A stretch of 62,104 nucleotides of DNA, taken from NCBI GenBank assembly GCA_020854145.1, contig JADZFZ010001081.1, positions 1 through 62,104 on the forward strand, written 5' to 3'. Made by a program: the position numbers and the translations under genes. The notes beneath the pieces were generated by a model. It searched no databases and was not told the DNA's origin. It worked only from the letters and a program-made list of their open reading frames with translations. Positions 7,012-49,305 of the stretch are shown here, one piece after another; within the stretch, counting starts at the first letter, position 1, and each line of letters begins with the position of its first letter. Origin of the DNA: Deltaproteobacteria bacterium. GTDB taxonomy: Bacteria > Myxococcota_A > Polyangia > Polyangiales > JADZFZ01.

Positions 7012-7083
7012 GGCCGACGCTCCTCAACAGGTCTGCCTGAAACGCATCCGCCGGCTTCTGCGTCGGGCGGCTGGCGACATCGT

Positions 7084-7905: not shown

Positions 7906-7907
7906 CG

Positions 7908-14140: not shown

Positions 14141-14156
14141 GCCGTCCCCGCCAGGC

Positions 14157-16934: not shown

Positions 16935-17193
16935 CTCACCCCTCCGACTACCGACGCTCCCAGTATCGATCCGATCCGCCCGCAGTTGCGTGATCAACGT
17001 GAACTGGTGCAGAGACGGGCGCGAGCATGAGCACTACGGCTCGCATGGAGTCCACTTGGGAGATCGTCGAGATCGAGAGGGAGGACGACCGACTTCTCCG
17101 CACCACGGGCTCCACTTGCGCCGCGGCAATCGCGTCGGCTCACGCCTTCTCGGACCCATCACGGACACGATAGCTTCCAGTCCGGCCACGGCG

Positions 17194-17418
17194 ATGCGCA
17201 CCAACCTCTCGCGATCACGCGGACCGAGCGACGACGCGACCCTCGTCCGCAGTCAGATCGGCCCGTTCACCATCGATGCCGTTCTCGGCAGCGGAGCGAT
17301 GGGAGCCGCCACGCGACCTCCAGCCGACCGCGTTTTCCGTGCCGGCGCCCGCCGGCGTGGTCGACGAACCATAGTCACCTCACGGGTCGCCGAGCCTCCT
17401 CATGCACGACGGCACTGA
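17194..17418 (+). pseudogene. N-terminal remnant of a Ser/Thr protein kinase
   Basis: IGPFTIDAVLGSGAMG (kinase subdomain I, GxGxxG), then non-kinase sequence and a stop after 74 aa. Confidence 0.55.
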
Positions 17419-34700: not shown

Positions 34701-37232
34701 CTGAACGTCGTCAACATGCGGAACGTCCCGCCAACTCCCGCCAACTACGCGCAGCGGAGTGGTCGCGCCGGCCGAAGCGGACAACCCGCCTTCGTTCTCA
34801 CGTATTGCTCGGCAGGGAGTCCCCACGACCAGTACTTCTTCCGGCGCCCCGACCGAATGGTGTCCGGAGCCGTCACCGCTCCCCGGCTCGATCTCGCCAA
34901 CGAGGATCTCTTGCGGGCTCACGTCCACGCGGTCTGGCTGGGTGTCGCGAAGCTCGGTTTGGGCCACTCCCTCGCCGAGGTCCTGGATGTCGGGGGAGAC
35001 GAGCCGACCCTGGAGCTGCAACCGAAGCTCAAAGCCGCTCTGGACGACCGGCGGTTCCGCGATCTCGCACGTGAGCGTGCGACCGACGCCTTGGGTGAAG
35101 CCGTCACCGCCGTGCTCGCACCTTCGGAGACCGTGCACGGTTGGATGACGCGTGTTCTCGATCAGCTCCCGCGATCATTCGACGACGCCTGCGAACGCTG
35201 GCGCTCGCTCTACAGGGCAGCCCTCACGCAATCGAAGCGCCAGCAGCGGCGGGTGCTCGACGCGTCGCTCCATCCACGCGACCGTGAGGCCGCCGCGCGC
35301 TTGCGCGCGGAGGCCGAAGCGCAGATTCGACTTCTCCTCGAAGTCGGGGAGGAGCAACACTCCGATTTCTACAGCTATCGCTATTTCGCCAGCGAAGGGT
35401 TTCTCCCCGGCTACAACTTCCCGAGATTGCCCCTCTCGGCGTTTCTCCCCGGAAGACGCGGAAGTCAGGGCCGCGACGAATTCCTGACCCGTCCCCGTTT
35501 CCTGGCGATCACCGAGTTCGGTCCGCGGAGCATCGTGTACCACGAGGGATCGCGGTACGTGATCAACAAGGTCATCGTCCCCGTCGATGCCGATGGCGCG
35601 AGCATCAATCGCCGAGGCGTGCAGTGTACGAGCTGCGGGTATCTGCATCCCCTCGGAGACGAGCCGGCGCCCGACCTCTGCGAGCACTGCGGCGCGGCGC
35701 TGCCCGGGGCGAGCGACAATCTCTTTCGAATGCAGAACGTCTCCACCCGACGCCGTGATCGGATCAATTCCGACGAGGAGGAGCGCTTTCGTCTCGGTTA
35801 CGAGATGAAGACGGGTCTGCGATTCGCCACACGCGGCGGAGTCGTCTCCGCACAGGAGGCCGAGCTCGCCAGCGCGGATGGGATTCCGCTCGCACGATTG
35901 GTGTACGGAAATGCCGCGACCCTCTGGCGCATCAATCTGGGTTGGCGCCGCCGCCAGAATCGCGATCAGACCGGCTTCTTGCTCGATCTCGATCGCGGCT
36001 ACTGGGCGAAGAACCAGGAGGTGGAGGACGACCCGGACGACGACGTCTCCAGACGGCTCGCTCGGGTCGTGCCCTTCGTGGAGGACCAGAGGAATTGCCT
36101 GCTCGTCGTCCCGTCGACCACGCTGCCCGCCCCCGTGATGGCGAGTCTGCAGTCGGCGCTGAAGAGTGCCGTCCAGATCGTCTATCAGCTCGAAGATCGA
36201 GAGCTCGCTGCCGAGCCACTGCCGAGTGACGACGTCCGCTCGCGGATTCTGCTGTACGAGGCCTCCGAAGGCGGCGCAGGCGTCTTGAGGCGGCTCGTGG
36301 AGGATCCCGGTGCTGCCGCCGTCGTCGCCCGGGCTGCACTCGATCTCTGCCACTTCGACGCAGACACGCTTCGTGATCGCCGACCACCCGACGCGGCCGG
36401 CAACGGCTGCGAGGCAGCCTGCTACGACTGCCTGCTCTCGTACTACAACCAGCGCGAGCACCGACTCCTCGACCGCAAGCTCCTTCCGGAGCTGCTTCGT
36501 ACCTGGATGTTGGGAAAGGTCCGGACTTCACCTCGCCCGGAGCCGCGACAGGAGCACGTCGCTCGGCTCAAGCGTCTGGCGCAGTCCGACCTCGAGCGGA
36601 GTTGGATCGACCTGGTGGATCGACAGGGGCTCAAGCTGCCGTCCGACGGTCAGGTGTTCATCGACGCCGCGAACGCTCGGCCGGACTTCCTGTATCGCCA
36701 GGAGGGCGCGGCCATCTTCGTGGATGGGCCGGTCCACGACGACGAACGCCAACGCGGCTCCGACCGCGAGCAACAAGACGCGTTGGAGGATGCGGGCTTC
36801 GCGGTCATCCGCTTCCACCACGCCGTCGATTGGCTCGGGGTCATTCGCGGCTACCCGAGCGTCTTCGGAACCGTGGCATCGATCCCGCCGCCCGGGACCC
36901 ATCCGCCGGGTCCCCAGGTCGAGGGCGTCGATCTCGAGGATTTCGATCCGCAGTGGCAGTCGCTCGTCGTCGCGCTCGCCGGCGATCCGGGAGCTCTGAT
37001 TCGCGCCGTCGGCGACATCGCGGATCCGTCGGGACGCGTGGTTGGATCGTGCCCGGCCGAGGTCGTGGCGGGTGCGAAGTCCGTATTCGTGGTGGACCTG
37101 ACCAGCCCCGATGTCGAGCGCGTCGAGGCGGCTCTGCTCGCCGAGGGTCGTGTCGTCGTGCGCGTCGATCCGGCTGCAGGCGATGCGGCCGAGCGCGTCC
37201 GCGCAGCACTTCGGAACGCGGTGCCGTCGTGA
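31704..37232 (+). CDS. SF2 DEAD/DEAH helicase with DUF1998 (MZB) and DUF559-like nuclease (fused DrmA/DrmB-like)
   Basis: TTGTGSGKS, PMNALANSQ, LDELHTYRG, TSAT, TMELGVDI, QRSGRAGR; C-x..CEAACYDCL; ARPDFLY..AIFVDGPVH..D...L..AGFAVIRF. Confidence 0.92.
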   Translation: MMDVFALREHVVGEYHRYVRSFFEVRDPRIRELVDQQLQRGVFWPDPLVQLNPTFEPGPPLLELVREGLLHPECEKIFADKDVDGTVRSPFRFHKHQVDAFRAARAGKHYVLTTGTGSGKSLSYIVPIVDHVLRRGSGRGIQAIVVYPMNALANSQIGELTKFLEHGYPAGHPPVTFKRYTGQERDEERREIIGNPPDILLTNYVMLELLLTRPWEHQLVAAAEALRFLVLDELHTYRGRQGADVAMLVRRVREACRAHDLLHVGTSATLSGAGSWDAQRAEVAEVASRIFGVNVGKDEIVGETLRRVTPRRELEPEFDVHLREVIERGDTPPTDSIDAFVNHPLSVWIETNLGLEEKGGRWVRCTPRPISGDDGAGQDLADRLQLPIDFALGAIMRTLLAGYRVRDSHRRPLFAFRLHQLVSKGDAVYASPEAEADRHLTLDAQQFVPGSDRARVLLPIAFCRECGQEYYLVRKARDGQGRTSYLPRDIGDRTTDDDGEPGFLHIRALEPWPDGGTEILQRLPDSWVELDKQGQLVVRQSRRAQVPRTVFLGPDGVEGSGDVRAQWLPAPFLFCLCCGVSYGAHQASDYGKLGTLGSEGRSTATTIMSLSTMRSLRAETDLPPDARKLLSFTDNRQDASLQAGHFNDFVELVLLRSGLAAAVRNAGSSGIRHDELTHRVFDALGLSLSLYASNPNVEFLQREETERALRAVLGYYLYRDLRRGWRITSPNLEQCGLLAIDYLSLRQFCAANDRWASLHPVLAGASPDERERACRVLLDYMRRELAIRVDYLSAAHQETIEQQSRQYLVPPWSLDDMSSMERSTIVVPGSRSRDADPTDRLLFLSPRGGYGAFLRRHATFASWAGERLRIDDTDVLIRELLTALTVPGIVQRVLEPRGDLAAGYQVNASALVWRAGDGGQAFHDPVRVPSAPESGLRANPFFVDYYRADTSVLKAMEAREHTAQVPSSVREDREQRFRDARLPVLYCSPTMELGVDIASLNVVNMRNVPPTPANYAQRSGRAGRSGQPAFVLTYCSAGSPHDQYFFRRPDRMVSGAVTAPRLDLANEDLLRAHVHAVWLGVAKLGLGHSLAEVLDVGGDEPTLELQPKLKAALDDRRFRDLARERATDALGEAVTAVLAPSETVHGWMTRVLDQLPRSFDDACERWRSLYRAALTQSKRQQRRVLDASLHPRDREAAARLRAEAEAQIRLLLEVGEEQHSDFYSYRYFASEGFLPGYNFPRLPLSAFLPGRRGSQGRDEFLTRPRFLAITEFGPRSIVYHEGSRYVINKVIVPVDADGASINRRGVQCTSCGYLHPLGDEPAPDLCEHCGAALPGASDNLFRMQNVSTRRRDRINSDEEERFRLGYEMKTGLRFATRGGVVSAQEAELASADGIPLARLVYGNAATLWRINLGWRRRQNRDQTGFLLDLDRGYWAKNQEVEDDPDDDVSRRLARVVPFVEDQRNCLLVVPSTTLPAPVMASLQSALKSAVQIVYQLEDRELAAEPLPSDDVRSRILLYEASEGGAGVLRRLVEDPGAAAVVARAALDLCHFDADTLRDRRPPDAAGNGCEAACYDCLLSYYNQREHRLLDRKLLPELLRTWMLGKVRTSPRPEPRQEHVARLKRLAQSDLERSWIDLVDRQGLKLPSDGQVFIDAANARPDFLYRQEGAAIFVDGPVHDDERQRGSDREQQDALEDAGFAVIRFHHAVDWLGVIRGYPSVFGTVASIPPPGTHPPGPQVEGVDLEDFDPQWQSLVVALAGDPGALIRAVGDIADPSGRVVGSCPAEVVAGAKSVFVVDLTSPDVERVEAALLAEGRVVVRVDPAAGDAAERVRAALRNAVPS

Positions 37233-39301
37233 CGACGCTGCTGTCGGAGTCCTTTCTCGAATCGGTCGGCCGGCTGTCCGCGGGCGCGAAAGCTCGCGTC
37301 TTGGACTTCATCGCCGCGTTCCAGAAGAACCCTGCATCTCCGGCCGTGAGTCTGGAGCGCGTGACGGGGGCACGTTCGTCTCAGGTGTGGGCCGGTCGGA
37401 TCTCGAACGAGCTGCGCGCCATCCTCCACAAGGACGGCGACACGTGGGTCGTCCTGCACGCCGACCATCACGACCCGGCTTACCGTTGGGCGGGACGCCA
37501 CGAGGTCGGCCGGCACGCGGTGACCGGGGCGCTCCAGGTGGTGGAGGTCGTCGAGCGCGTCGAGGAGCCCGTCGTCGCACGTTCGCGCGCGGCACCCGTG
37601 CCCGCCGGCCTGTTCGGTGGGCGAACGGACGATTACCTCGTGAGCCTGGGCGTTCCCGAGACGTGGCTCCCCGTCTTGCGATCGGTGACGAACGACGACC
37701 AGCTCCTCGACGTCTGCGTGAAGCTGCCGTCCGACGTGGCGGAACGCCTGCTCTCGGTCGCGGGCGGCGAGCTCGTCACTCCCCCTGCGCCCATCCCGCT
37801 CGATGCGCCGCTGACGGCCAGCCCCGACCTGCAGCGCCGGTTCTACGTGGTCGATGACCGCTCGGACCTCGAGGCGGTGCTCGATGCACCGATGGCGCGA
37901 TGGATTGCCTTTCTCCATCCGAGCCAGCGCCAGCTCGTGGAGAAGGACTTCCACGGTCCGGCGAAGATCACGGGCTCTGCCGGAACCGGCAAGACGACCG
38001 TCGCCATGCACCGTGCACGGCGTCTCGCGCGCGCCGGCCGACGTGTCTTCCTGACCACCTATGGCCGCACGCTCGCCGAGAACCTCCTTCGCCAGCTTCG
38101 GGTCTTCTGCACACCCGAGGATCTCGAGCGCATCACCGTTTCGACAGTGCACGCACGCGCGCTCGCAGTGGCGCGCACCCGCGACAGTCGAGTCGACATC
38201 GCAGGGACCAACGAAGTCCGCACCCTCCTCGACGCGATGCGCCTGCGGCATGCCCCTTCGCTCGATCCGGCGTTCGTACGCGCGGAGTGGGAGTCCGTCG
38301 CGCAACTGCACGGTCTCGAATCGTGGGCCGAATACCGCGGAGCTCGGCGGACCGGCCGCGGCAAGCCACTGAGCGTCGCGGATCGCAAGCAAGTCTGGCA
38401 GGTCTTCGAGGCGGTGCTCGAGACGTTGCGCGGCAGGCGTCACTACGACTGGTCCGGCCTCTGCCGTTTTGCCTGCGCGGAGCTGTCTTCGGGTCGAGCT
38501 GCGAGCCCGTTCGACGCCGTGCTCGTGGACGAAGTGCAGGACCTCAAGCCGCCGGAGCTGCGATTCCTGCGAGCGCTCGTCGGGACTGCGGGCGAGCTCG
38601 TCCTCTTCGGCGACGCGGGTCAGCGCATCTATCCCGGCGGGTTCAGCTTGGGTGCGCTCGGCATCGACGTGCGCGGCCGCTCGACGATCCTCCGATTGAA
38701 CTATCGGACCACGGAGCAGATACGGCGTGCCGCCGACCGCGTGCTGGGCACCGAATCGGACGACCTCGATGAAGGTCGGGAGTCGCGGCGCGGCACGCGG
38801 AGTCTCTTGCGCGGGCCGGAGCCCCAACTCCGCGGCTATGAGCTCGGCGAGTCCGAGACCGATGCCGCCGTCCGACGAATCCGACAGTGGCTCTCCTCCG
38901 GTTTGCAGCCCTCCGGCATCGCGGTATTCGCGCGCACCAACCGGCGGGCCGAGCAGATGGTCGGCGCATTCACGGCAGCGGATGTGCCCGCCGTGCTGCT
39001 CGCGGACGGAGACGAGCGCGCGACCGACGCCGTTCACGTCGGGACCATGCACCGCGCCAAGGGCCTCGAGTTCCGCGCGGTGCTCGTCGCGGATTGCTCT
39101 GCCGGCGTCGTTCCGCTCGCGACGATGCTGGATGCCCAGGTCGATCCTCAGGACCGCGAGACTGCCGAAGAGCGCGAGAAGCAATTGCTGTATGTCGCAA
39201 TGACTCGCGCGCGCGACGAGCTGGCCATCACGTGGACGGGGCAGCCCAGTCCGTTCCTCGCGCCGCTGCTCGGCGGCTCGCACGTCGGAGAATCCCCATG
39301 A
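37229..39301 (+). CDS. UvrD-like SF1 helicase with N-terminal RelE-like domain
   Basis: GTGA overlap; GSAGTGKT, VDEVQD, FGDAGQRIY, LNYRTT, TMHRAKGLEF, LLYVAMTRAR; N-terminus WAGRISNELRAIL...HADHHDPAY. Confidence 0.88.
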   Translation: MTTLLSESFLESVGRLSAGAKARVLDFIAAFQKNPASPAVSLERVTGARSSQVWAGRISNELRAILHKDGDTWVVLHADHHDPAYRWAGRHEVGRHAVTGALQVVEVVERVEEPVVARSRAAPVPAGLFGGRTDDYLVSLGVPETWLPVLRSVTNDDQLLDVCVKLPSDVAERLLSVAGGELVTPPAPIPLDAPLTASPDLQRRFYVVDDRSDLEAVLDAPMARWIAFLHPSQRQLVEKDFHGPAKITGSAGTGKTTVAMHRARRLARAGRRVFLTTYGRTLAENLLRQLRVFCTPEDLERITVSTVHARALAVARTRDSRVDIAGTNEVRTLLDAMRLRHAPSLDPAFVRAEWESVAQLHGLESWAEYRGARRTGRGKPLSVADRKQVWQVFEAVLETLRGRRHYDWSGLCRFACAELSSGRAASPFDAVLVDEVQDLKPPELRFLRALVGTAGELVLFGDAGQRIYPGGFSLGALGIDVRGRSTILRLNYRTTEQIRRAADRVLGTESDDLDEGRESRRGTRSLLRGPEPQLRGYELGESETDAAVRRIRQWLSSGLQPSGIAVFARTNRRAEQMVGAFTAADVPAVLLADGDERATDAVHVGTMHRAKGLEFRAVLVADCSAGVVPLATMLDAQVDPQDRETAEEREKQLLYVAMTRARDELAITWTGQPSPFLAPLLGGSHVGESP

Positions 39302-42153
39302 GGTTCGAGATCGGCTCGCTGGTGAAGGCCCGCGGTCGCGAATGGGTCGTGCTGCCCGAGACCGCTCGAGAGACCGACACGCTGGTCGTGCGTCCACTCG
39401 GTGGCACGGACGACGAGGTGACCGGGATTTACCTGCCGCTCGAGACCGTCGAATCGGCGCAATTCCTGCCGCCCGATCCGCGCGAGGCGCTCGGCAATCA
39501 CCAATCGTGTGCGCTCCTGCGCGATGCGGTGCAGCTGGGCTTCCGATCGGCGGCTGGTCCTTTTCGCTCGCTCGCGCGCATCGCGGTGGAGCCGCGCCCC
39601 TATCAGCTCGTGCCGCTGTTGATGGCACTGAAACAGGACCCCGTTCGGCTCCTCATCGCGGACGACGTGGGAGTCGGCAAGACCATCGAAGCGCTGCTCG
39701 TCGCACGCGAGCTCCTCGACCGCGGGGAGGTTCGACGCATGGCGGTGTTGTGCCCGCCTCACCTGGCGGAGCAATGGCAGCGCGCGATGAAGCAACAATT
39801 CCACCTCGACGCCGCGTTGGTCCTCGCGAGCACCGCAGGCAGGCTCGAGCGCGATTGTGGCCCCGGGGAATCGCTTTTCGACCGGCATCCGCTGGTCATC
39901 GTCTCTCTCGACTACATCAAGTCGGACAAGCGTTGCGACACGTTCGTGCGCGCGTGCCCCGAGCTGGTCATCGTCGACGAGGCCCACACCTGCACCGATG
40001 CAGGCGCTGCTCGCTCCATCGGTCAGCGGCGGCACGCTCTGCTCCGGCGATTGGTGGATCCGCACGGGGTTGGCGCCGATCGCCATCTCTTGCTCGTGAC
40101 GGCGACGCCCCACAGCGGCAATCCCGAGAGCTTCCGTTCGATGTTGTCGCTCCTCGATCCGTCCTTCGCGACGTTACCCGAAGACCTGGGCGGCGAGGTC
40201 AATCGCAAGCACCGCGAACGACTCGCGCTCCACGTGGCGCAACGTAGCCGTGGCGACGTGACGAACTACCCCGTGGGCGAAGACACCTCCACGCCGTTTC
40301 CGACGCGGAAGACCGCAGACACGAGCTACCTCCTGTCCGACGCCTACGCGGCCTTCTTCAAGAAGGTCGTTCTCTTCTGCCGGTCTCGTGTGCTCGACGA
40401 GTCCCTCGGGAAGCAGCGGCAGCGGGTCCGCTGGTGGTCGGCGTTGGCGCTGTTGCGATCGGTCGGCTCGTCTCCGGCGGCTGCGGCCGCGACGCTGCGG
40501 AATCGAGCGCAGACCGATACCGCCGAGTCGCCCGAAGAGGTCGACGAGCTCGGCCGGCGCTCGGTCCTCGACCTCGACGACGAGGGCACGGAGGGGATCG
40601 ACGTCGTGCACGGAACCCAGGAGGGCGACGATTCCGATTCCGACGACACGCGTGCGTTGCGGAAGCTCGCGAAAGAAGCCGACGCCCTTCGCGGCGAGCC
40701 CGACGCCAAGCTGCGCAAGGCGATCGACCTGATTCACCAGCTCGTTCGCGATGGGTCGTCGCCCATCGTGTTCTGCCGCTTCATCCCCACCGTGGAGTAC
40801 CTCGTCGAGGCATTGCGGGCGCGATTCAAGGACAAGATTGCCGTCGAGGGCGTGACCGGTGATCTCCCTCCGGAAGACCGCGAGGAGCGCGTCGAGTCCC
40901 TCGCGAAGAGACCGCATCGCGTGTTGGTGTGTACCGATTGCCTGAGCGAAGGCATCAATCTGCAACACGCATTCGACGCCGTATTCCACTACGACCTCTC
41001 GTGGAACCCGACGCGCCACGAGCAACGCGAGGGTCGAGTGGACCGCTTCGGACAGGAGAAGCGCGAAGTCCACACGGTCACCTACTACGGCGAAGACAGT
41101 CCGATCGACACGTTGGTCCGAAAGAAGCTGCTCGAGAAGCATCGGACCATTCTCAAGCAGCTCGGCGTCTACGTGCCCGTGCCGCAGGAGTCCGATCGTC
41201 TGGTCGAGGCGCTCGTTCGCGAGGTGTTCTTCGGCTCGAATGATCCGACCAACCCGAGGCAGCTGAACCTGGCGCTGCAGCAGGACGTCCCGCTCCTGAA
41301 GGAAGTCGAGCTCCGTTGGGACCGTGCGGTGGAGCGCGAGAAGCGGAGCCGCCAGCTCTTCGCGCAGCATGCCATCAAGACCGAGGACGTCGCGACGGAG
41401 GTCGCTGAGGCCCGACGTGCGCTCGGCGGTGAGTCCGACGTGCAACGATTCGTGCTGACGGCTGCTTCGTGTCTCGGCGCCACCGTTTCGTCGTCCGGTC
41501 CGCCATTCCAGATCGATCTCCGCGAGACGCCCGCGGCACTTCGCGACGCGATCGTGGACGACGAGACCTCCGTGCGCGTGGCGTTCCGCGGGATGGAGCG
41601 GGACGGCATCTGGGTCCTCGGGCGCACCCATCCATTCGTGGCGGGATTGGCGGCCTACGTTCTGGAGACCGCCCTCGACGCCAAAGGCGACGGGCCCGCG
41701 CGCCGTTGTGGAGTGGTGCGTACGAACGACGTGGCCAAGCGCACGACGGTGCTCGTCGCTCGGGCGCGTTACCACCTCGTGACCGTCAAGCCGGAGCAGC
41801 CGGAGCAGGCGCTCTTGGCGGAGGACGTCTTCCTGGCAGCCTTCGAAGGAAGTCCGGACGAGCCCGAGTGGCTCGACGAGTCCGCGGTGGCGCGGGTGCT
41901 GGCGGCGAAGCCGAGCCAGAACGTCGCGGTCGATTTGGCGCGCACGCAGCTCGGCCGAATCGTCGAACGGCTGAGTGTTGCGCGAGCGAAGCTCGATGCG
42001 CTCGCGAAGGAGCGCGGAAAGGCGCTGCTCGCGTCACACCGGCGAGTTCGCGAAGCCGCCAAGGCGCGAACGAAGACGGTGCGGGTCGAGCCGCACCTGC
42101 CCGCGGACGTCCTGGGCGTCTTCGTCTATCTCCCGGCCGGAGGCGCGTCGTGA
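39298..42153 (+). CDS. SNF2-family helicase (DrmD-like)
   Basis: ATGA overlap; ADDVGVGKT, VDEAH, VTATPH, CTDCLSEGINL, WNPTRHEQREGRVDRFGQ. Confidence 0.92.
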   Translation: MRFEIGSLVKARGREWVVLPETARETDTLVVRPLGGTDDEVTGIYLPLETVESAQFLPPDPREALGNHQSCALLRDAVQLGFRSAAGPFRSLARIAVEPRPYQLVPLLMALKQDPVRLLIADDVGVGKTIEALLVARELLDRGEVRRMAVLCPPHLAEQWQRAMKQQFHLDAALVLASTAGRLERDCGPGESLFDRHPLVIVSLDYIKSDKRCDTFVRACPELVIVDEAHTCTDAGAARSIGQRRHALLRRLVDPHGVGADRHLLLVTATPHSGNPESFRSMLSLLDPSFATLPEDLGGEVNRKHRERLALHVAQRSRGDVTNYPVGEDTSTPFPTRKTADTSYLLSDAYAAFFKKVVLFCRSRVLDESLGKQRQRVRWWSALALLRSVGSSPAAAAATLRNRAQTDTAESPEEVDELGRRSVLDLDDEGTEGIDVVHGTQEGDDSDSDDTRALRKLAKEADALRGEPDAKLRKAIDLIHQLVRDGSSPIVFCRFIPTVEYLVEALRARFKDKIAVEGVTGDLPPEDREERVESLAKRPHRVLVCTDCLSEGINLQHAFDAVFHYDLSWNPTRHEQREGRVDRFGQEKREVHTVTYYGEDSPIDTLVRKKLLEKHRTILKQLGVYVPVPQESDRLVEALVREVFFGSNDPTNPRQLNLALQQDVPLLKEVELRWDRAVEREKRSRQLFAQHAIKTEDVATEVAEARRALGGESDVQRFVLTAASCLGATVSSSGPPFQIDLRETPAALRDAIVDDETSVRVAFRGMERDGIWVLGRTHPFVAGLAAYVLETALDAKGDGPARRCGVVRTNDVAKRTTVLVARARYHLVTVKPEQPEQALLAEDVFLAAFEGSPDEPEWLDESAVARVLAAKPSQNVAVDLARTQLGRIVERLSVARAKLDALAKERGKALLASHRRVREAAKARTKTVRVEPHLPADVLGVFVYLPAGGAS

Positions 42154-45100
42154 GTCGCGTGTCCGACAGGGGTGCTCTCGAGGGCGTGAAGACCGAAGGC
42201 GGGCTCCTTCCTCCGGACCTGCTGCAGCGAATTGCCGCGGCCGACGCGAAGGTCGGGGGCCTGTCGGTGGACGACTACCACCTGGCCAAGAACGAGACGC
42301 TCGCCGAAGCGATCACCCGCTCGTGGAATCGTCTCCTCGCTGCCTGGGTGTCGTTCCGCGATGCGCGCGCCAGGCTGCCGGAGGGCGACAAGGCGATCGG
42401 GCCTACCCGCGACAAGTGGCTGTTGCCGCTCTTCCAGGAGCTCGGCTACGGGCGTCTCGCGAAAGCAGGACCCGAAAAATTCCGTGTCGGCGATCAGAGC
42501 TACGCAATCTCGCACTGTTGCCAGCATCCTTCGCCGATTCACCTTCTCGGCGCGGGCGTTCCGCTCCACACGAAGACGCCGGGCGTCGCCGGCGCAGCGA
42601 CCGCTTCGCCGCACGGCCTGCTGCAAGACTTCCTGAATCGGTCCGACGGGCACCTGTGGGGCTTCGTCTCGAACGGTCTGCTGCTACGCGTTCTGCGAGA
42701 CCACCGGAGCCTGACACGCTCGGCGTACGTGGAGTTCGATCTCGAATCGATCTTCGAGGGCGAGCTGTTCCACGCATTCCGATTGCTTTGGCTCGTGTGC
42801 CACCAGAGTCGCGTCGAGGCCGAGAAGCCCGAGGACTGCTGGCTCGAGAAGTGGCACGAGCTCGTCCGCGAGGAAGGAATCAACGCGCTCGACGATCTGC
42901 ATCGCGCGGTTCGCGAGGCGATCACGGTCTTCGGTCGGGGCTTCCTGCGGCACCCCACGAACGTCGCGCTCCGGGATGCGCTGACTTCGGGCGCGCTGGA
43001 CAAGCAGGACTATTACCGGGAGCTGCTCCGGTTGGTCTATCGGCTCATCTTCCTCTTCGTCACGGAGGACCGAGGCGTGTTGCTCGATCCCGGCGCGTCG
43101 GAGGATGCCCGGAGTCGCTACCTACGTTTCTACTCGACCAAGCGCCTCCGGGACCTCGCGCGCAAACGCCGCGGGAGCGCACATTCCGATTCGTGGCACG
43201 CGCTCCGCGTCGTGATGCGCGGCCTGGACGACGGTCTTCCGGCGCTGGGTCTCCCGGCGCTCGGGAGCTTCCTCTGGAGCCCGACCTGCATTGCGCACCT
43301 GGAGCCCGACGAGATCAGCAACGAAGATCTCCTCGCTGCAATCCGGGAGCTCTCCACGACCGTCGACAAGCGCAAGCAGCGTTTCCCGGTGAGCTGGCGG
43401 AACATCGGCTCCGAGGAGCTCGGGAGCGTCTACGAGCGGTTGTTGGAGCAACACCCCGAGGTGAACAAGACCGCCAGCACGTTCGAGCTCCGCACGGCGG
43501 CCGGCCACGAGCGCAAGACCACAGGCAGCTATTACACGCCGGCGTCGCTCGTCGAATGTCTCCTCGACACGGCACTCGAGCCCGTGGTCGACGACGCGCT
43601 GAAAGGCAAGTCCGGCAAAGCCGCCGAGGACGCGGTTCTCGCATTGACCGTGTGCGACCCCGCGTGCGGCTCGGGGCACTTCCTATTGGCCGCCGGTCGT
43701 CGATTGGCTCGCCGACTCGCCCGCGTCCGTTCGGGCGACGAGGAGCCGAGCCCCGAGGCGCAGCGTCACGCGTTGCGCGACGTCGTGGGGCGGTGTTTGT
43801 ACGGGGTGGACCTCAACGAGATGGCGGCCGAGCTCTGCAAGGTCAGCCTGTGGCTCGAGGCCATCGAGCCAGGGCGACCGCTGAGCTTCCTGGACGGGCA
43901 CATCCAGGTGGGCAATTCGCTGCTCGGCACGACCCCCGAGCTCATGGCGAAGGGCATCCCCGACGACGCGTGGACGGCCATCGAAGGCGACGACAAGGAA
44001 GTCGCGAAGTCGCTGAAGCGGCGCAACAAGCTGGAAGCGAAGGGGCAGCGGACGCTGGGAGGACTGTTCGACAAAGACCCGGCGGAGGAGGCGAATCAGA
44101 TTCTCGCCAAGACACAGAGCATCGAGGCTGTGAACGACGAAGACCGTGGCGGGCTGCGCCGGAAAGAGTCGGCCTGGGAAGCGCTGAGGAACTCGCCAGA
44201 GTACCGACACGCGACATTGGTGGCGGATGCATGGTGCGCCGCGTTCGTGTGGCCGAAGCAGCGCGGCGCGATGTCGGACGCAGCGCCGACGAACGGAACC
44301 TGGAGGACGCTGCGCGATCAGCCGGACCGGGCGTTGGCGAAGACGGTGGAGATCGTCGGGAAACTCGCGCGAGAGTACGCGTTCTTTCACTGGCGGATCC
44401 GGTTCCCCCAGGTCTTCGGGCGGGGAGGGTTCGATGCGGTGGCAGGGAACCCGCCGTGGGAGCGCATCAAACTGCAAGAAAAGGAGTACTTCGCTGGGCA
44501 TCACCAAATCGACGGCGCGGCCAATGCCGCCGCTCGGAAGGCGCTCATCTCCGGGCTCCAGCTCACCGACGAGGCACTCTGGGTCCGGTGGATATCTGCT
44601 CGACGGCTGGCCGACGGAGAAATGGCGCTTGTTCGATTGTCTCAACTCTACCGACTGTGCGCCGGAGGCGACATCAATGCCTATGCTCTCTTTGTGGAAC
44701 TCGCCCGGTCGCTACTTCGGTCGAGCGGGTACGTAGGCATGATAGTCCCTCCTGGCCTGCTGACGGACGACTCGCGGAAGGCGTTCGCCCGTGATGTCAT
44801 CGAGGGGCGCCGGCTCGCGTGCTTCTACGAATTCACCAATCGCGGATACCTCTTCAGCACTACCGAAAGCACAACCACTTTCGCCTTGGTAACCCTAACG
44901 GGCCACTCCAGAACTGCGAGGATCCGCTGTGCGGCGCATCTTTGGTCGGTTGCCGATCTCCGCAATACCGAGCGCACATACGAGCTGTCGTCCGAGGACG
45001 TAATCCGGCTTAATCCCAACACGCGGACCATGCCGGTTTTCGAGTCCGCCCGGAGCGCCGACATCACTGCCCGAATGTACGCGGCAACGCGAGTCCTGAT

Positions 45101-46454
45101 TTGCGAGGGCCAGCCGGACGGTGACCCGTGGCAACTGCAGCTCACAACCATGTTCCACATGGCGGCCGACTCAGCGAATTTTCGAACAGAATCAGAGCTC
45201 AAATCGGACGGCTATGTGCCGACTGCAAACGTCTACCGGCGGGGCGCGGACACGTACCGGCCGCTATACGAATCGAAACTTGCCTATGCGTACAACCATC
45301 GTGCCGGCTCCTTTGCTGGCGTCCCGCAGGACGAGATCCTTGGCCCGCGAGCACGAACGATCTCTGCGAGCGAGGTGGCGTTAGCCGATCCGGCCTGGCA
45401 GATAACCCCCAGATACTGGCTGCTTGAGGACCACATCGACACCGAGCTCGCTACTCGGGGATGGCAGGCAGGCTTCCGCGACGTTGTGAATGCGGTCGCG
45501 GATGCCAGGTGTGTTTCCGCGGCGATCCTTCCAGTGGCCCCCGTCGGACACACCATCACATTGCTCCGGACTGGGGGTGGCGCACGAACAACCGCTCTAT
45601 TGCTGGGCGTCCTAAATAGCTTCGCGTGCGACTACGCCGCGAGGCAGAAGATCTCCGGGTCGCATTTGAGCGCGTACATCGTCCGACAGCTACCGGCTCC
45701 TCCGCCTCAAGAGTTCGCGCGATCGTGCGTATGGGACGCCGGAGTGAGTCTCGGCGACTGGATAATACCGCGAGTCGTCGAACTGTCGTACACGGCGTGG
45801 GACATCGAGCAATTTGCCCGCGACTGTGGCTTCGCTTCTTCGCCCTTCCGATATGACGATGAACGGCGCCTCGTCATGAGGTCGGAGCTTGACTCTGCGC
45901 TTGCCCATGCGTTCAGGCTCAGCCGCAGTGACTGTGAGTACCTTCTTGAGTCGTTTCCGGTGGTTCGGCGAAGCGATGAGCGCCGCTACGGCGAGTACCG
46001 CACGAAGCGCCTCATCCTCGAGTGCTACGACGCCATGGCCGAAGCAGCCTCGAAGGGCACTACCTACCAGACACGCCTCGACCCGCCGCCGGCCAACCCC
46101 GGCGTGGCGCACGGACCGACGCCGTGGCGGCAGGTGGTCCGGTCGGATCGGGGAGCGCAGTCGGTCTCGGCGTTCGAGGTGCGCTACTGCGGCGGCGATG
46201 TCGTCGAGGTGCGCGGTCAGGACGCGAGCGAACCCGAGCTGCGCACGGCGACGGCGCACTTCGGGGAGCCGGAGTACGAGACCATCGAGGGCGGGGACGC
46301 TGACGGTAGTCGCGGCGACCGACGGCGGCTCAAGCTGCGCGGGTACTTCGAGTGGTTGACTCGGCTGGACAGTCTGCCGGCTCCGTTTCGAGCGCGCCCA
46401 CTCCCAGCCCAGGAGCCACACGCGGCCTCGGCTGGCTCGGAGGACTCCCAATGA
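42150..46454 (+). CDS. large N6-adenine DNA methyltransferase (type IIG/Eco57I- or DrmMI-like) with TRD
   Basis: GTGA overlap; ELGSVYERLL, RKTTGSYYTP, DPACGSGHFL (motif I), GVDLN, GNPPW (motif IV). Confidence 0.92.
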   Translation: MSRVSDRGALEGVKTEGGLLPPDLLQRIAAADAKVGGLSVDDYHLAKNETLAEAITRSWNRLLAAWVSFRDARARLPEGDKAIGPTRDKWLLPLFQELGYGRLAKAGPEKFRVGDQSYAISHCCQHPSPIHLLGAGVPLHTKTPGVAGAATASPHGLLQDFLNRSDGHLWGFVSNGLLLRVLRDHRSLTRSAYVEFDLESIFEGELFHAFRLLWLVCHQSRVEAEKPEDCWLEKWHELVREEGINALDDLHRAVREAITVFGRGFLRHPTNVALRDALTSGALDKQDYYRELLRLVYRLIFLFVTEDRGVLLDPGASEDARSRYLRFYSTKRLRDLARKRRGSAHSDSWHALRVVMRGLDDGLPALGLPALGSFLWSPTCIAHLEPDEISNEDLLAAIRELSTTVDKRKQRFPVSWRNIGSEELGSVYERLLEQHPEVNKTASTFELRTAAGHERKTTGSYYTPASLVECLLDTALEPVVDDALKGKSGKAAEDAVLALTVCDPACGSGHFLLAAGRRLARRLARVRSGDEEPSPEAQRHALRDVVGRCLYGVDLNEMAAELCKVSLWLEAIEPGRPLSFLDGHIQVGNSLLGTTPELMAKGIPDDAWTAIEGDDKEVAKSLKRRNKLEAKGQRTLGGLFDKDPAEEANQILAKTQSIEAVNDEDRGGLRRKESAWEALRNSPEYRHATLVADAWCAAFVWPKQRGAMSDAAPTNGTWRTLRDQPDRALAKTVEIVGKLAREYAFFHWRIRFPQVFGRGGFDAVAGNPPWERIKLQEKEYFAGHHQIDGAANAAARKALISGLQLTDEALWVRWISARRLADGEMALVRLSQLYRLCAGGDINAYALFVELARSLLRSSGYVGMIVPPGLLTDDSRKAFARDVIEGRRLACFYEFTNRGYLFSTTESTTTFALVTLTGHSRTARIRCAAHLWSVADLRNTERTYELSSEDVIRLNPNTRTMPVFESARSADITARMYAATRVLICEGQPDGDPWQLQLTTMFHMAADSANFRTESELKSDGYVPTANVYRRGADTYRPLYESKLAYAYNHRAGSFAGVPQDEILGPRARTISASEVALADPAWQITPRYWLLEDHIDTELATRGWQAGFRDVVNAVADARCVSAAILPVAPVGHTITLLRTGGGARTTALLLGVLNSFACDYAARQKISGSHLSAYIVRQLPAPPPQEFARSCVWDAGVSLGDWIIPRVVELSYTAWDIEQFARDCGFASSPFRYDDERRLVMRSELDSALAHAFRLSRSDCEYLLESFPVVRRSDERRYGEYRTKRLILECYDAMAEAASKGTTYQTRLDPPPANPGVAHGPTPWRQVVRSDRGAQSVSAFEVRYCGGDVVEVRGQDASEPELRTATAHFGEPEYETIEGGDADGSRGDRRRLKLRGYFEWLTRLDSLPAPFRARPLPAQEPHAASAGSEDSQ

Positions 46455-49036
46455 CGTTCACCCCGGTGCAGCGGATGTTGGAGCGAGTCGACCTCGCCCG
46501 AGCTGATTCGGACACAAGCCTGTTCTTCGATCTGCTGGGGTTGGCGGAGTTGGTCGCGAAGATCCTCACCGCGTCTGTCGTCGCTGCCATCGCCGACGAC
46601 AAGGATCGCACGCGGTATGGCCAACTCCACCGTCTCGTTCGGGCGGACGGAATCGGCGAATGGGCTGCCGTTCTGGACGAGACTGTCAGCGGTCCCCCTT
46701 CCCAGGGAATTCTACCCGAAGCACGGCCACTCCTGCGCGAGTTGAGCGAGAAGTGCCCGGCTGGCACGTGGCAGTTTGAGGCCGTGAGCCGCATGCACGA
46801 GTGCCTGCTCGTGGTGGGCGCAAGTCCAGAGGCACTCCCGGCCAAGCCCCAACTGAAAACGTGGTTCGCCAAGTTCGCCACCCTCCGCAACAAGACTCGC
46901 GGCCACGGTGCGTGCCCTAGTCGAGTACTCGCCGACGCCTGCGTACCTCTCGAGGCGTCGGTCCGCAGGATTATCGACAACTCGGCGGCGTTTTCGGCGT
47001 CGTGGGCCTACCTCCATCGTAATCTCAACGGCAAGTATCGGGTCACGCCGCTCACAGATGTGGCCGCTGCTTTCGGCAACTTGAAAAGCACTACGCAGCA
47101 CAATTTTCCTGACGGGGTGTATGTTCATCTGGGTCGCCCCGTTCGGGTGGACTTGGTTGACTCCGACGTAGACGCCTCCGACTTCGTTGTGGCGAACGGA
47201 GGGTTCGGCGGCGACCGCTACGAGATGCTGTCGTACGCTACCGGCCAAACGCGCTTTGCGGAGTCGTCCGCATTTCGGCTGCCGCCGACGCAACTTCCGA
47301 GCAGCGAGACGGCAGGCCTCGGCGAGTTGGACGCGGTTGGCGCCTGCTTCACCAACTTGCCGAAAACGCCCGTTGACTACATCCAGCGACCCGTCAGTGA
47401 GGCCGCGCTGCGCGAGTTTCTGCATGACGACTATCGCCGGATTGTCACACTCATCGGCCGGGGAGGAATCGGCAAGACCAGCCTCGCATTAGCGTGCCTC
47501 GACCGCATCGCGAGGGAAGGCGGCCGATTCGAGGTCATCGTTTGGCTGAGCGCGCGTGACCTCGATCTCCTGCCGCAGGGGCCCAAGCGCGTTCGGCCCG
47601 ACGTGATCGATCACAACGATATCGCTCGGGAGTACGCGCGTCTGCTGCAGCCGGACGAGGCGGGGCTGAAGAGTTTTCGAGCCACGGACTTCCTCGCACG
47701 TGAACTGGGCGAGGCAGCGGCTGGACCTACGCTATTCGTCCTCGATAACTTCGAGACGGTGAGTAGCCCGCCCGTTCTCTATCAGTGGATCGATAGTCAC
47801 ATTCGCCCCCCGAACAAGGTCTTGATCACTACGAGGCATCGGGATTTCAGTGGCGACTATCCAATCGAAGTCGGTGGAATGTCCGACTCCGAGTGCGAGA
47901 GGCTGATCGAATCTGTCGCTCGTCGCCTGCGCATTCAGGAACTGCTGACTTCGGACTACATTGAAGACGTCATTCGAGAGTCCGAGGGCCATCCTTATGT
48001 CATGAAAATTCTCCTCGGGGAGGTCGCGAAAACCGGAATGCTTCGGAAGGTCGAGCGCATCGTGGCGGAGTCGGACGCAATCCTCGATGCGTTGTTCGAA
48101 CGAACGTTCTTGGCACTGTCGCCTGCGGCACAGAGAGTGTTCTTGACAGTGTGCGGTTGGCGCTCCGCAGTTCCACGAGTTGGGCTCGAGGCGATCTTGC
48201 TGCGCGCCGCAAACGAGAGGATCGCGGCCAGGGATGCGATCGAGGAGCTTCAGCGAAGCTCCTTCATCGAGTCACTGGAGTCTTCTGAGGATGGGCAGAT
48301 GTTCATTGCTGCTCCCCTAGTCGCCCGACTGTTCGGGCAGCGAAAGCTGTTGGTGAGTCCCATGAAGACCGCCATTCAGGCTGACGTTGATTTGCTCCGG
48401 GCATTCGGGCCAACTACCCGGCCGGAGACGCGGCAAGGATTTGCCCCGCGACTCAGGCAAATGGTCCGGCATGTGGCCCGGAAAGGTGCCGGTGAGTTCG
48501 AGCAGTATATTCCCATCCTCGAGTTTATCGCGTGCAGTTACCCTGGTGCGTGGTTGGAGCTCGCTACGATGTATGAAGAGAGTTCTCAGCCCGACGGGAT
48601 GGACCGGGCCATCTATGCTCTGCGGCGGTACTTGGAGAGTGGCACGCAGGAGTATGCTGGCGAGGTTTGGACTCGGTTGGCCGAGATTTGTCGGCGGACG
48701 GGTGACACTGTTGGGGAGTTGCAGGCTCTGATCGAGGCGGCAGAGTGCACTGGGGCAAGCCTCGAGGCGGTCTCGGCTGCGGCGAATCGCGTCAACAACC
48801 TGTTTCGTGTCGCCGCCGTCGACTCGAGTGAAAAGCACATTCTCGTGCGCCGACTTGTCGACGCCATGGCGGCGAACATCGGACGCGGCACCGCGACGGA
48901 CTACTCGCGACTGGCTTGGTTGTGCCTGCATCTCAAGGACGCCGTGCGCGCTAGGAAGTACGTGGCCGCGGGACTTCAGTTGGACCCGACGAACGAACAC
49001 TGCGTACGGCTCGAGGAGCGTCTCAGTGCCGGCTGA
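46451..49036 (+). CDS. STAND/NB-ARC-type NTPase with N-terminal HEPN-like domain and C-terminal TPR-like repeats
   Basis: ATGA overlap; LRNKTRGHG (46886-46906); GRGGIGKTSLA, LFVLDNFETV, VLITTR, GHP; helical repeats. Confidence 0.82.
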   Translation: MTFTPVQRMLERVDLARADSDTSLFFDLLGLAELVAKILTASVVAAIADDKDRTRYGQLHRLVRADGIGEWAAVLDETVSGPPSQGILPEARPLLRELSEKCPAGTWQFEAVSRMHECLLVVGASPEALPAKPQLKTWFAKFATLRNKTRGHGACPSRVLADACVPLEASVRRIIDNSAAFSASWAYLHRNLNGKYRVTPLTDVAAAFGNLKSTTQHNFPDGVYVHLGRPVRVDLVDSDVDASDFVVANGGFGGDRYEMLSYATGQTRFAESSAFRLPPTQLPSSETAGLGELDAVGACFTNLPKTPVDYIQRPVSEAALREFLHDDYRRIVTLIGRGGIGKTSLALACLDRIAREGGRFEVIVWLSARDLDLLPQGPKRVRPDVIDHNDIAREYARLLQPDEAGLKSFRATDFLARELGEAAAGPTLFVLDNFETVSSPPVLYQWIDSHIRPPNKVLITTRHRDFSGDYPIEVGGMSDSECERLIESVARRLRIQELLTSDYIEDVIRESEGHPYVMKILLGEVAKTGMLRKVERIVAESDAILDALFERTFLALSPAAQRVFLTVCGWRSAVPRVGLEAILLRAANERIAARDAIEELQRSSFIESLESSEDGQMFIAAPLVARLFGQRKLLVSPMKTAIQADVDLLRAFGPTTRPETRQGFAPRLRQMVRHVARKGAGEFEQYIPILEFIACSYPGAWLELATMYEESSQPDGMDRAIYALRRYLESGTQEYAGEVWTRLAEICRRTGDTVGELQALIEAAECTGASLEAVSAAANRVNNLFRVAAVDSSEKHILVRRLVDAMAANIGRGTATDYSRLAWLCLHLKDAVRARKYVAAGLQLDPTNEHCVRLEERLSAG

Positions 49037-49305
49037 TCTCGGGCGCGTCGCAGGGCTTCGCGTCCCGCGGGGAGATGCTCGCCAGTCGGGCCGCTCTGGC
49101 GTCATGTGGCTCGTGTGACTTCAAGGGCGCGCGCTGCCGCTGAGGGTATCACCCCTCTCCGGGAGCCTGGGACCGCGTACCCCCCGGAGTGGTGTGCCGG
49201 CACGCGGGAGACCGCGCGGCCGCCGGAGGTGCGCATCGGTGAGGCGCTGGCCGGGTTCGCCCGCGCACGATTGCGGGAGCGTGGCCCTCGAATGCAGGTG
49301 AGTCG

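What the first reader, a model, noticed from the sequence alone, without database searches (positions are those of the whole stretch)
46451..49036. NLR-like STAND protein with HEPN-like effector hard-wired to the MTase gene
Seen: effector-NTPase-TPR architecture with an ATGA overlap to the MTase stop. Known: Avs/bNACHT proteins sense phage proteins through repeats and oligomerise N-terminal effectors. Inference: a possibly new Avs-like type that guards the R-M-like complex or senses a conserved phage protein.
Basis: partly seen in the sequence, partly recalled or inferred. Interest (0 to 1): 0.65.

Follow-up and report, generated by a model that had tools for sequence, protein, structure and literature searches.

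The report
Avs-like STAND ATPase appended to DISARM-like operon
This gene encodes an uncharacterised but widespread NLR-type (STAND) ATPase that is probably a stand-alone anti-phage sensor with a possible RNase killing domain; its tight join to the methyltransferase gene is a local, probably recent insertion and not a conserved partnership.

Summary
Window 46451-49036 (+) encodes an intact 861-aa protein whose ATG overlaps the methyltransferase stop (ATGA) behind a GGAGGA site. It has an NB-ARC-type STAND NTPase, a TPR-like C-terminus and a 310-aa N-terminal module. That module carries an invariant R146-N147-x4-H152 motif placed where HEPN RNases carry theirs. It matches no Pfam family, no solved structure and no viral model, so "HEPN-like" stays a motif-and-topology inference.

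The protein belongs to one uniform family: about 775 clusters at 50% identity, at least 17 phyla, no PADLOC match. The link to the methyltransferase is not a family trait. Only 1 of 80 other loci has a DISARM-type methyltransferase upstream, and it lies in a distant clade. None of about 25 homologous helicase-SNF2-methyltransferase cassettes has this gene downstream; that slot holds varied defence genes. The gene's GC3 is 0.72 against 0.79-0.83 for the operon.

The family is strongly enriched next to restriction-modification genes (at least 14 of 80 loci). One clade sits between hsdS and hsdR, as PrrC does.

Verdict: a new member of the Avs-like kind that most likely acts on its own. The guard reading is a minority possibility.

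The parts
46451..49036 (+). STAND NTPase gene, 861 aa plus stop (protein P0001)
   Evidence: Open frame. Full-length homologues at about 50% identity begin at the same residue.
46439..46454 (+). GGAGGA ribosome-binding site (46439-46444) and ATGA start/stop overlap (46451-46454) with the methyltransferase gene
   Evidence: Read directly from the sequence; junction table.
46451..46999 (+). N-terminal all-helical domain, residues 1-183: putative HEPN-like effector
   Evidence: AF2 model pLDDT 92. Helices 4-17 and 21-45 (E33 and K37 invariant), an insert at 54-122, then helices 136-150 and 157-177. No Pfam, PDB or BFVD match.
46886..46909 (+). Motif R146-N147-K-T-R-G-H152-G153 (Rx5H)
   Evidence: R146, N147 and H152 are invariant in 118 sequences and in 80 genome loci. 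The motif sits at the end of a helix and the start of the next loop, which is the canonical HEPN position (PMC3710099).
47000..47380 (+). Beta-rich domain and conserved linker, residues 184-310, function unknown
   Evidence: AF2 strands at 185-301. Invariant N249, G250, E258, S261, Y262, P283, S285, N302 and P304. No significant fold match.
47381..48070 (+). NB-ARC / AP-ATPase-type NTPase, residues 311-540: Walker A G336-T343 (GRGGIGKT), Walker B D432, LITTR 458-462, GHPY 513-516
   Evidence: Pfam NB-ARC 1.7e-10. Invariant motifs. Foldseek matches to 6mfv, CED-4, Apaf-1, NRC1 and Avs5.
48071..49033 (+). Winged-helix region (about 541-640) and TPR-like alpha-solenoid (about 641-861): putative sensor
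   Evidence: AF2 secondary structure. Weak Pfam TPR_2 match. Foldseek matches to consensus-TPR proteins, OGT TPR and IFIT5. It is the least conserved region, at 44% mean pairwise identity.
42150..46454 (+). Upstream DrmMI-like / type IIG-like N6-adenine methyltransferase (context)
   Evidence: Pfam Eco57I 1.8e-20. PADLOC DrmMI 1.6e-69.
31704..42153 (+). Rest of the operon (context): DruE-like helicase with DUF1998/MZB (31704-37232), UvrD-like helicase (37229-39301), SNF2 DrmD/DpdE-like helicase (39298-42153)
   Evidence: Pfam, PADLOC and NCBIfam matches. 4-nt overlaps at the junctions.

Best explanation
The gene encodes an autonomous, Avs-like antiviral STAND NTPase of the NB-ARC/AP-ATPase type from a large uncharacterised family. 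Shown here: a three-part layout with intact Walker A and B, sensor and GxP motifs; a family-specific N-terminal module with an invariant R-N-x4-H motif and an invariant glutamate in an earlier helix; a uniform architecture across about 775 clusters; and a strong association with restriction-modification and other defence genes. Inferred by analogy with Avs proteins, NLRs and the apoptosome: the TPR-like C-terminus binds a conserved phage-derived ligand. Binding releases autoinhibition and drives ATP-dependent oligomerisation of the NB-ARC core. Oligomerisation brings the N-terminal domains together. If those domains are HEPN-type, as their motif position suggests, pairing them would complete a composite RNase site, and RNA cleavage would stop growth and abort the infection. 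At this locus the gene was inserted, probably by recent horizontal transfer, at the variable 3' end of a conserved three-gene DISARM-like cassette (DruE-like helicase, SNF2, DrmMI-like methyltransferase). It is co-translated with that cassette but does not need it.
For: Architecture and motifs. Family size and uniformity: more than 1700 hits at about 50% identity over the full length; 266 relatives in species-representative genomes from at least 17 phyla; 775 representatives at E<=1e-3, with the N-terminal module always at the start of proteins of about 865 aa or of their fragments. Defence association: HsdS lies immediately upstream in 8 of 38 co-directional neighbours, with Eco57I methyltransferases, GmrSD, Mrr and TIR also present. 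HsdR lies downstream in 5 of 21. At least 14 of 80 loci have an R-M-type gene within 5 kb, P = 2e-11 against the 0.0153 null of Lee et al. 2026. The window itself is a defence island. Autonomy: 79 of 80 loci lack the DISARM-like genes. About 25 homologous SNF2-methyltransferase pairs, including 11 extended loci, lack the STAND gene; their downstream slot holds DUF4325 with Mrr_N-AAA_5, DUF2326 with HNH, DUF1016 with AAA_21, or Schlafen-AlbA_2. The window's protein and the one other DrmMI-linked member lie in distant clades. GC3 is 0.724 against 0.79-0.825 for the operon. HEPN reading: the motif sits at the end of one helix and the start of the loop to the next, an invariant E33 lies in the second helix, and an insert separates helices 2 and 3. 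This is the arrangement described for HEPN domains (PMC3710099). HEPN-STAND-TPR proteins have been described in bacteria.
Against: There is no experimental evidence for any family member. The N-terminal module matches no Pfam HEPN model at E<=1 in any of 80 members, no PDB sequence and no PDB or BFVD fold (best E 0.4). It could therefore be a non-nuclease domain. I could not inspect the model coordinates to check that E33, R146 and H152 lie close together. Unlike typical Avs effectors, the module is never found swapped onto other scaffolds. The C-terminal region is short (about 220-320 aa) and fairly conserved (44% identity), unlike the large sensors of characterised Avs proteins. Most neighbours in other genomes are not recognisable defence genes.
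Confidence: 0.6

Rival explanations
1. PrrC-like guard. The protein is held latent on the methyltransferase or specificity module of the R-M-like system. It fires its N-terminal nuclease when a phage anti-restriction protein disables that module.
For: The gene is translationally coupled to the methyltransferase here. It follows DrmMI independently in Draconibacterium (L076). It lies between hsdS and hsdR, often with 4-nt overlaps, in 7 loci. That is the position of prrC as I recall it from the literature; the paper read here states only that prrC is always linked to a silencing R-M locus. All 7 loci fall in one well-supported clade that spans 6 phyla.
Against: About 80-85% of family loci have no adjacent R-M genes. 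The window's own clade (L001-L004) has none. Homologous cassettes do without the gene. No fusion to an R-M subunit was found among the odd-length relatives. The NTPase is a STAND, not the ABC type of PrrC.
Confidence: 0.12
2. An antiviral STAND whose N-terminal module is not an RNase. It could be a new enzymatic, membrane-acting or adaptor domain, or part of the sensor, and the R..H motif would serve another role.
For: No sequence or fold match to any HEPN. The module has two domains (helical plus beta), is family-specific and is never shuffled.
Against: R146, N147 and H152 are strictly invariant, and the motif sits at the canonical HEPN position with a conserved acidic residue in helix 2. The hhalign control showed that recognised HEPN families also fail to detect each other at this alignment depth, so the negative results are weak.
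Confidence: 0.17
3. An integral accessory subunit of this particular DISARM-like system, for example a sensor or executioner standing in for a small DrmC.
For: It is the last gene of a five-gene operon with overlapping junctions. No small drmC lies in the operon. The same gene order occurs in L076.
Against: It is absent from every other homologous cassette, including the closest one (L112, 65% identity on three genes) and the second copy in the same genome. Its composition is foreign to the operon.
Confidence: 0.06
4. A non-defence STAND, such as a signalling or regulatory NTPase, that happens to lie in a defence island.
For: Many homologues have housekeeping neighbours such as gyrB, pheT, transketolase and carboxylases. 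The sequence is well conserved.
Against: It has no DNA-binding or other output domain typical of MalT- or AfsR-type regulators. R-M adjacency is enriched at P = 2e-11. The distribution across at least 17 phyla is patchy and looks driven by horizontal transfer.
Confidence: 0.05

Closest known systems
Avs / AVAST antiviral STAND NTPases (Avs1-5; Avs7, 8 and 10-21 of Lee et al. 2026, PMC13581612)
   Same: Single-gene layout of an N-terminal presumed effector, a central STAND NTPase and C-terminal helical repeats. Association with defence islands and R-M genes. Foldseek similarity to the Avs5 filament (9nc9, E 5e-6).
   Different: No match to any PADLOC model, which includes Avs1-5 and bNACHT. The NTPase is of the NB-ARC/AP-ATPase type. 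The post-NTPase region is about 320 aa, below the 400-aa cut-off used for sensor clustering in Lee et al.. The effector module is family-specific and is not shuffled. No trigger is known. I could not check whether the family is one of their 589 clades, because the supplementary tables are not held.
NB-ARC / AP-ATPase STANDs with solved structures: archaeal STAND-TPR protein 6mfv, CED-4, Apaf-1, Dark, plant NRC1/NRC3/MLA13
   Same: Best structural matches for the NTPase, helical and winged-helix core, and for the TPR region in 6mfv. Pfam NB-ARC match.
   Different: Sequence relationship is limited to the P-loop: a family profile finds no PDB STAND at E<=0.01. The N-terminal domain differs (no CARD, CC or TIR), and the sensor is TPR-like, not WD40 or LRR.
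Bacterial HEPN-STAND-TPR proteins predicted by Anantharaman et al. 2013 (e.g. Npun_F6454; PMC3710099)
   Same: An N-terminal domain bearing Rx4-6H, followed by a STAND NTPase and TPRs, proposed as conflict or defence proteins.
   Different: Those HEPN domains belong to recognised HEPN families. This one matches no Pfam HEPN model.
PrrC / RloC anticodon nucleases
   Same: An NTPase plus a HEPN-type nuclease in one polypeptide. Genes embedded in R-M operons; the hsdS-hsdR position of prrC is recalled from the literature, and linkage to a silencing R-M locus is stated in the paper read. One clade of this family occupies the hsdS-hsdR position.
   Different: PrrC has an ABC-type ATPase at the N-terminus and the HEPN domain at the C-terminus, with no repeats. 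prrC is always R-M-linked (PMC3458546), whereas only about 15% of this family is.
Class 1 DISARM (drmD, drmMI, drmA, drmB, drmC)
   Same: The host operon carries DrmD-like SNF2, DrmMI-like methyltransferase and a helicase with DUF1998.
   Different: A STAND NTPase is not a DISARM component. It is absent from homologous cassettes.

Membership tests
STAND NTPase, NB-ARC/AP-ATPase clade | P-loop NTPase with Walker A and B followed by helical and winged-helix (ARC) domains; match to the NB-ARC profile | tested here: met
   Pfam NB-ARC 41 bits against a 23.5-bit cut-off, residues 321-536. GRGGIGKT, D432, LITTR and GHPY are invariant. Foldseek probability 1.00 to 6mfv, CED-4, Apaf-1 and NRC1 NB-ARC.
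Avs / AVAST | Three-part single-protein layout: N-terminal effector, STAND NTPase, C-terminal repeat sensor | tested here: met
   AF2 model with pLDDT 90.4. TPR-like fold matches.
Avs / AVAST | Sequence membership in a named Avs type (profile match) | tested here: not met
   No PADLOC v2.0.0 family at E<=0.01. Avs7-21 profiles were not available.
Avs / AVAST | Statistical association with known defence genes | tested here: met
   At least 14 of 80 loci have type I R-M or DrmMI genes within 5 kb; binomial P = 2e-11 at the null of 0.0153. This is a proxy for, not a run of, DefenseFinder.
Avs / AVAST | Anti-phage activity triggered by a phage protein | not testable with these tools
   Needs plaque assays and co-expression toxicity screens.
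HEPN superfamily | Conserved Rx4-6H motif with a polar residue after R | tested here: met
   R146-N147-K-T-R-G-H152 is invariant in 118 sequences and in 80 genome loci.
HEPN superfamily | [quoted passage not shown] | tested here: inconclusive
   The order of secondary-structure elements fits: H4-17, H21-45 with E33, insert 54-122, H136-150, loop with H152, H157-177. Three-dimensional packing and residue proximity could not be inspected.
HEPN superfamily | Profile or fold similarity to a recognised HEPN family | tested here: not met
   No Pfam HEPN hit at E<=1 in 80 members. No PDB sequence hit. Foldseek best E 0.47 and no HEPN among the top hits. hhalign against HepT-like and Apea alignments gave below 1%, but the HepT-versus-Apea control gave only 2.3%, so that test had no power.
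DISARM (as a component) | Conserved co-occurrence with drmD, drmMI and drmA/B | tested here: not met
   1 of 80 family loci. None of about 25 homologous SNF2-methyltransferase loci, including 11 extended to 7 kb downstream.
PrrC/RloC | ABC-type ATPase at the N-terminus, HEPN anticodon nuclease at the C-terminus, and (for PrrC) obligatory R-M linkage | tested here: not met
   The NTPase is a STAND and the putative HEPN is N-terminal. About 15% of loci are R-M-linked.

The most novel reading that the evidence does not exclude
The family, or at least its hsdS-STAND-hsdR clade and the two independent DrmMI-linked members including this one, is a STAND-based counterpart of PrrC. In this reading it is an NLR-like guard that monitors the methyltransferase or specificity module of restriction-type systems, or senses the phage anti-restriction proteins that target it. 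It would fire a new, highly divergent HEPN-type RNase when restriction is disarmed. Repeated, translationally coupled insertion directly after the target-recognition or methylase gene would then be functional and not incidental.
Probability: 0.12. Interest if true: 0.75.

Novelty: new member of a known kind. Interest (0 to 1): 0.4.

Why it matters
If confirmed, this would add a widespread, environmentally dominant STAND family to the bacterial pattern-recognition repertoire. The family has about 775 clusters at 50% identity in at least 17 phyla and is almost absent from model organisms, plasmids and phages. Its effector module has no known fold match, and its sensor is unusually short and conserved, which points to a conserved trigger. 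The repeated embedding after hsdS or DrmMI offers a clean natural experiment on whether NLR-like proteins can act as second-line guards of restriction systems. For genome annotation, the 'hard-wired' operon position at this locus should not be read as a new DISARM subtype.

Tried and rejected
1. Pfam at E<=1 on the N-terminal 320 aa of 80 members gave no consistent family and no HEPN hit.
2. A profile search of PDB sequences with the N-terminal alignment gave nothing below E 1.4. With the full-length alignment it gave only P-loop hits.
3. Foldseek of the confident N-terminal model against PDB and BFVD gave nothing below E 0.39.
4. hhalign of the helical domain against HepT-like (33 sequences) and Apea (3 sequences) alignments built from genome hits was negative. 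The HepT-versus-Apea control also failed (2.3%), so the test had no power. The Apea genome search cost 250 genomes for 3 hits.
5. A search for stand-alone or re-fused copies of the N-terminal module found only fragments of the same family. Longer outliers were a transposase-HTH fusion, a C-terminally extended form and a chimera with a response-regulator domain. None was fused to an R-M subunit.
6. All-against-all clustering of neighbours found no universally conserved partner gene.
7. The PADLOC tally on 136 neighbours was dominated by redundant type I models and gives only a rough count.
8. The promoter and terminator scan of the 269-nt gap after the gene found nothing.
9. The Ralstonia megaplasmid record carries no annotation.
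10. Supplementary tables of Lee et al. 2026 are not held, so I could not check whether the family is already one of their clades.
11. I rejected the idea that the methyltransferase and STAND genes arrived as a conserved pair: no other locus with a homologous methyltransferase has the STAND gene.
Full report
**Observation.** Window 46451-49036 (+) is an uninterrupted 861-codon frame. Its ATG (46451-46453) overlaps the TGA (46452-46454) of the preceding 1434-aa gene, and GGAGGA lies 6 nt upstream of the ATG. Homologues from many phyla begin at the same residue, so this start is preferred to the in-frame GTG at 46352. The gene closes a five-gene operon in which every junction is a 4-nt overlap:
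- a DruE-like helicase with DEAD, Helicase_C, MZB/DUF1998 and DUF559 (31704-37232);
- a UvrD-like helicase (37229-39301);
- an SNF2 helicase (39298-42153; PADLOC DpdE model 1e-240, NCBIfam DrmD 4e-94);
- an Eco57I/DrmMI-type methyltransferase (42150-46454);
- the STAND gene.

A 269-nt gap separates the STAND stop from the next unit.

**Anatomy.** Pfam places an NB-ARC domain at residues 321-536 and a weak TPR_2 match at 817-848. An AlphaFold2 model built from 118 homologues (pLDDT 90.4) shows five parts:
- a helical domain at 1-182;
- a beta-rich domain at 185-301;
- a P-loop NTPase with ARC-type helical domains;
- a winged-helix region;
- an 11-helix solenoid running to residue 861.

Foldseek puts the core with an archaeal STAND-TPR protein (6mfv, 1.5e-10), CED-4, Apaf-1, Dark, plant NRC3/NRC1/MLA13, NLRC4 and the Avs5 filament. 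It puts the tail with TPR arrays. Walker A (GRGGIGKT, 336-343), Walker B D432, LITTR (458-462) and GHPY (513-516) are invariant. So "NLR-like STAND with TPRs" is confirmed.

**The N-terminal module.** R146, N147 and H152 in LRNKTRGHG are invariant in 118 proteins and in 80 genome-derived sequences. A separate model of residues 1-320 is confident (pLDDT 92, pTM 0.86). It gives helices 4-17 and 21-45 (with invariant E33 and K37), a helical insert at 54-122, helix 136-150 ending in R146-N147, a loop holding H152, and helix 157-177.

Anantharaman et al. describe HEPN domains as two alpha-hairpins, often with an insert between helices 2 and 3. [quoted passage not shown] The order of elements here fits that description.

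All direct similarity tests failed, however:
- no Pfam family at E<=1 in any of 80 members;
- no PDB sequence match;
- no Foldseek match in PDB or BFVD (best E 0.39-0.47).

My hhalign tests against HepT-like and Apea alignments were negative. Two accepted HEPN families also scored only 2.3% against each other, so that test carries no weight. I therefore treat "HEPN-like RNase" as a reasonable inference at roughly even odds, not as a result.

**The family.** More than 1700 cluster representatives match over the full length at about 47-54% identity. 266 relatives occur in species-representative genomes. An exhaustive HMMER search with the N-terminal profile finds 775 representatives at E<=1e-3 and 398 at E<=1e-30. 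In almost all of them the module sits at the start of a protein of about 865 aa or of a fragment of one.

A short-query search found no other architecture. The few odd-length proteins are a transposase-HTH fusion, a C-terminally extended form and a chimera with a response-regulator domain. All domains are similarly conserved, from 44% to 59% pairwise identity, and the TPR-like tail is the most variable. The family is absent from the phage collection. Among plasmids it occurs only on the Ralstonia solanacearum megaplasmid. No PADLOC model matches, and no solved STAND is a sequence relative.

**Is it wired to the methyltransferase?** No. Four lines of evidence agree.
- Family loci: among 80 family loci, only L076 (Draconibacterium) has the DruE-like, SNF2 and DrmMI genes upstream.
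- Homologous cassettes: methyltransferase homologues occur in 39 of 301 genomes of the same order. They nearly always follow the SNF2 gene. None of about 25 has the STAND gene in the 1.5 kb downstream.
- Extended loci: eleven loci extended to 7 kb show a conserved core of DruE-like helicase, SNF2 and methyltransferase, including a second copy in this genome. A variable set of genes follows: DUF4325 with Mrr_N-AAA_5, DUF2326 with HNH, DUF1016 with AAA_21, AAA_5, or Schlafen-AlbA_2. The closest cassette (L112) is 64-66% identical on the first three genes but only 46% on the methyltransferase, and it has no STAND gene.
- Composition and phylogeny: the STAND gene's GC3 is 0.724 against 0.79-0.825 for its neighbours. 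On the family tree the window's protein groups with Myxococcota, Planctomycetota and Acidobacteriota sequences that are not R-M-linked. L076 lies in a distant Bacteroidota clade.

The coupling is therefore a local and probably recent insertion at a variable operon end.

**Is it a defence gene?** Very probably.
- Immediately upstream, co-directional neighbours include HsdS (8 of 38), Eco57I-type methyltransferases (3), GmrSD (2), Mrr and TIR.
- Downstream neighbours include HsdR (5 of 21) and a DpdF-like helicase.
- At least 14 of 80 loci have an R-M-type gene within 5 kb. Against the null of 0.0153 used by Lee et al. 2026 this gives P = 2e-11.
- Seven loci have the order hsdM-hsdS-STAND-hsdR, several with 4-nt overlaps.
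- All seven fall in one strongly supported 23-member clade that spans six phyla.

Genes embedded in type I R-M, BREX and DISARM operons are known to be enriched for defence functions (bioRxiv 10.1101/2024.01.29.577857). As I recall it, prrC occupies the same hsdS-hsdR position; the paper read here confirms only its constant linkage to an R-M locus.

**Mechanism.** The most likely mechanism, by analogy with Avs proteins, NLRs and the apoptosome, runs as follows:
- the TPR-like tail binds a conserved phage ligand;
- the NB-ARC core oligomerises with ATP;
- the N-terminal domains are brought together;
- if they are HEPN-type, a composite RNase site forms and RNA cleavage aborts the infection.

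Only the architecture, the motifs and the genomic context are shown here. Every step of this mechanism is inferred.

**Rivals.** A PrrC-like guard reading is kept at about 12%. It is favoured by the recurrent position just after the methylase or specificity gene. It is weakened because most members lack an R-M neighbour. The other rivals are a non-nuclease N-terminal module, an integral DISARM accessory subunit and a non-defence STAND.

**Comparison and novelty.** The protein works like an Avs. By profile it is not a member of any catalogued Avs or bNACHT type that I could test. It fits the HEPN-STAND-TPR architecture class predicted in 2013. It may already be one of the 589 STAND clades of Lee et al. 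2026, which I could not check. Its post-NTPase region is below their 400-aa cut-off for sensor analysis. Earlier notes of this scan describe the same family in two other genomes and reach similar conclusions. I reproduced the main points independently. I rate it a new member of a known kind, of moderate interest.

Noticed in passing
window 31704-46454; loci L112-L122: The conserved unit is a three-gene cassette: a DruE-like helicase with DUF1998, an SNF2 helicase and a DrmMI-like methyltransferase. It occurs in 39 of 301 genomes of the order. It has no separate drmA, drmB or small drmC, and a variable set of defence-type genes follows it. The UvrD-like gene is shared only with the closest relative, L112.
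   Followed up: partly
own genome contig C74 (L120), 7017-19147 of the locus: This genome carries a second, diverged copy of the same three-gene cassette (39-44% identity). A Schlafen-AlbA_2/HATPase_c_4 protein lies further downstream in place of a STAND gene, and the methyltransferase homologue has one in-frame TGA.
   Followed up: partly
window 42150-46454: The methyltransferase is only 46% identical to that of L112, while the three upstream genes are 64-66% identical. GC3 drops to 0.67-0.73 in methyltransferase codons of about 800-1300. This suggests a swap of the methyltransferase or its target-recognition region by recombination, perhaps in the same event that brought in the STAND gene.
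   Followed up: partly
loci L041, L047, L050, L063, L064, L069, L073 (also L028, L043, L052): One well-supported clade of the STAND family, spanning six phyla, is repeatedly found between hsdS and hsdR of type I R-M operons, often with ATGA-type overlaps. I did not test whether the hsd genes and the STAND gene move together.
   Followed up: partly
L054:12581-16873: In a Flavobacterium locus the STAND gene is followed after 6 nt by a 1431-aa DpdF-like helicase (PADLOC 3e-67) and preceded by an HsdR-like gene.
   Followed up: no
proteins P0347, P0346, P0255: Rare odd-length relatives: a 1224-aa form with transposase-type HTH domains in front of the module, a 1266-aa form with a C-terminal extension of about 400 aa, and a 652-aa chimera ending in a response-regulator receiver domain. 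They may be gene-calling or assembly artefacts.
   Followed up: partly
window 49037-49305: A 269-nt gap follows the STAND gene before the next three-gene unit (547-aa unknown protein, PLD protein, 734-aa protein). The simple consensus scan finds no sigma-70-type promoter or intrinsic terminator there.
   Followed up: partly
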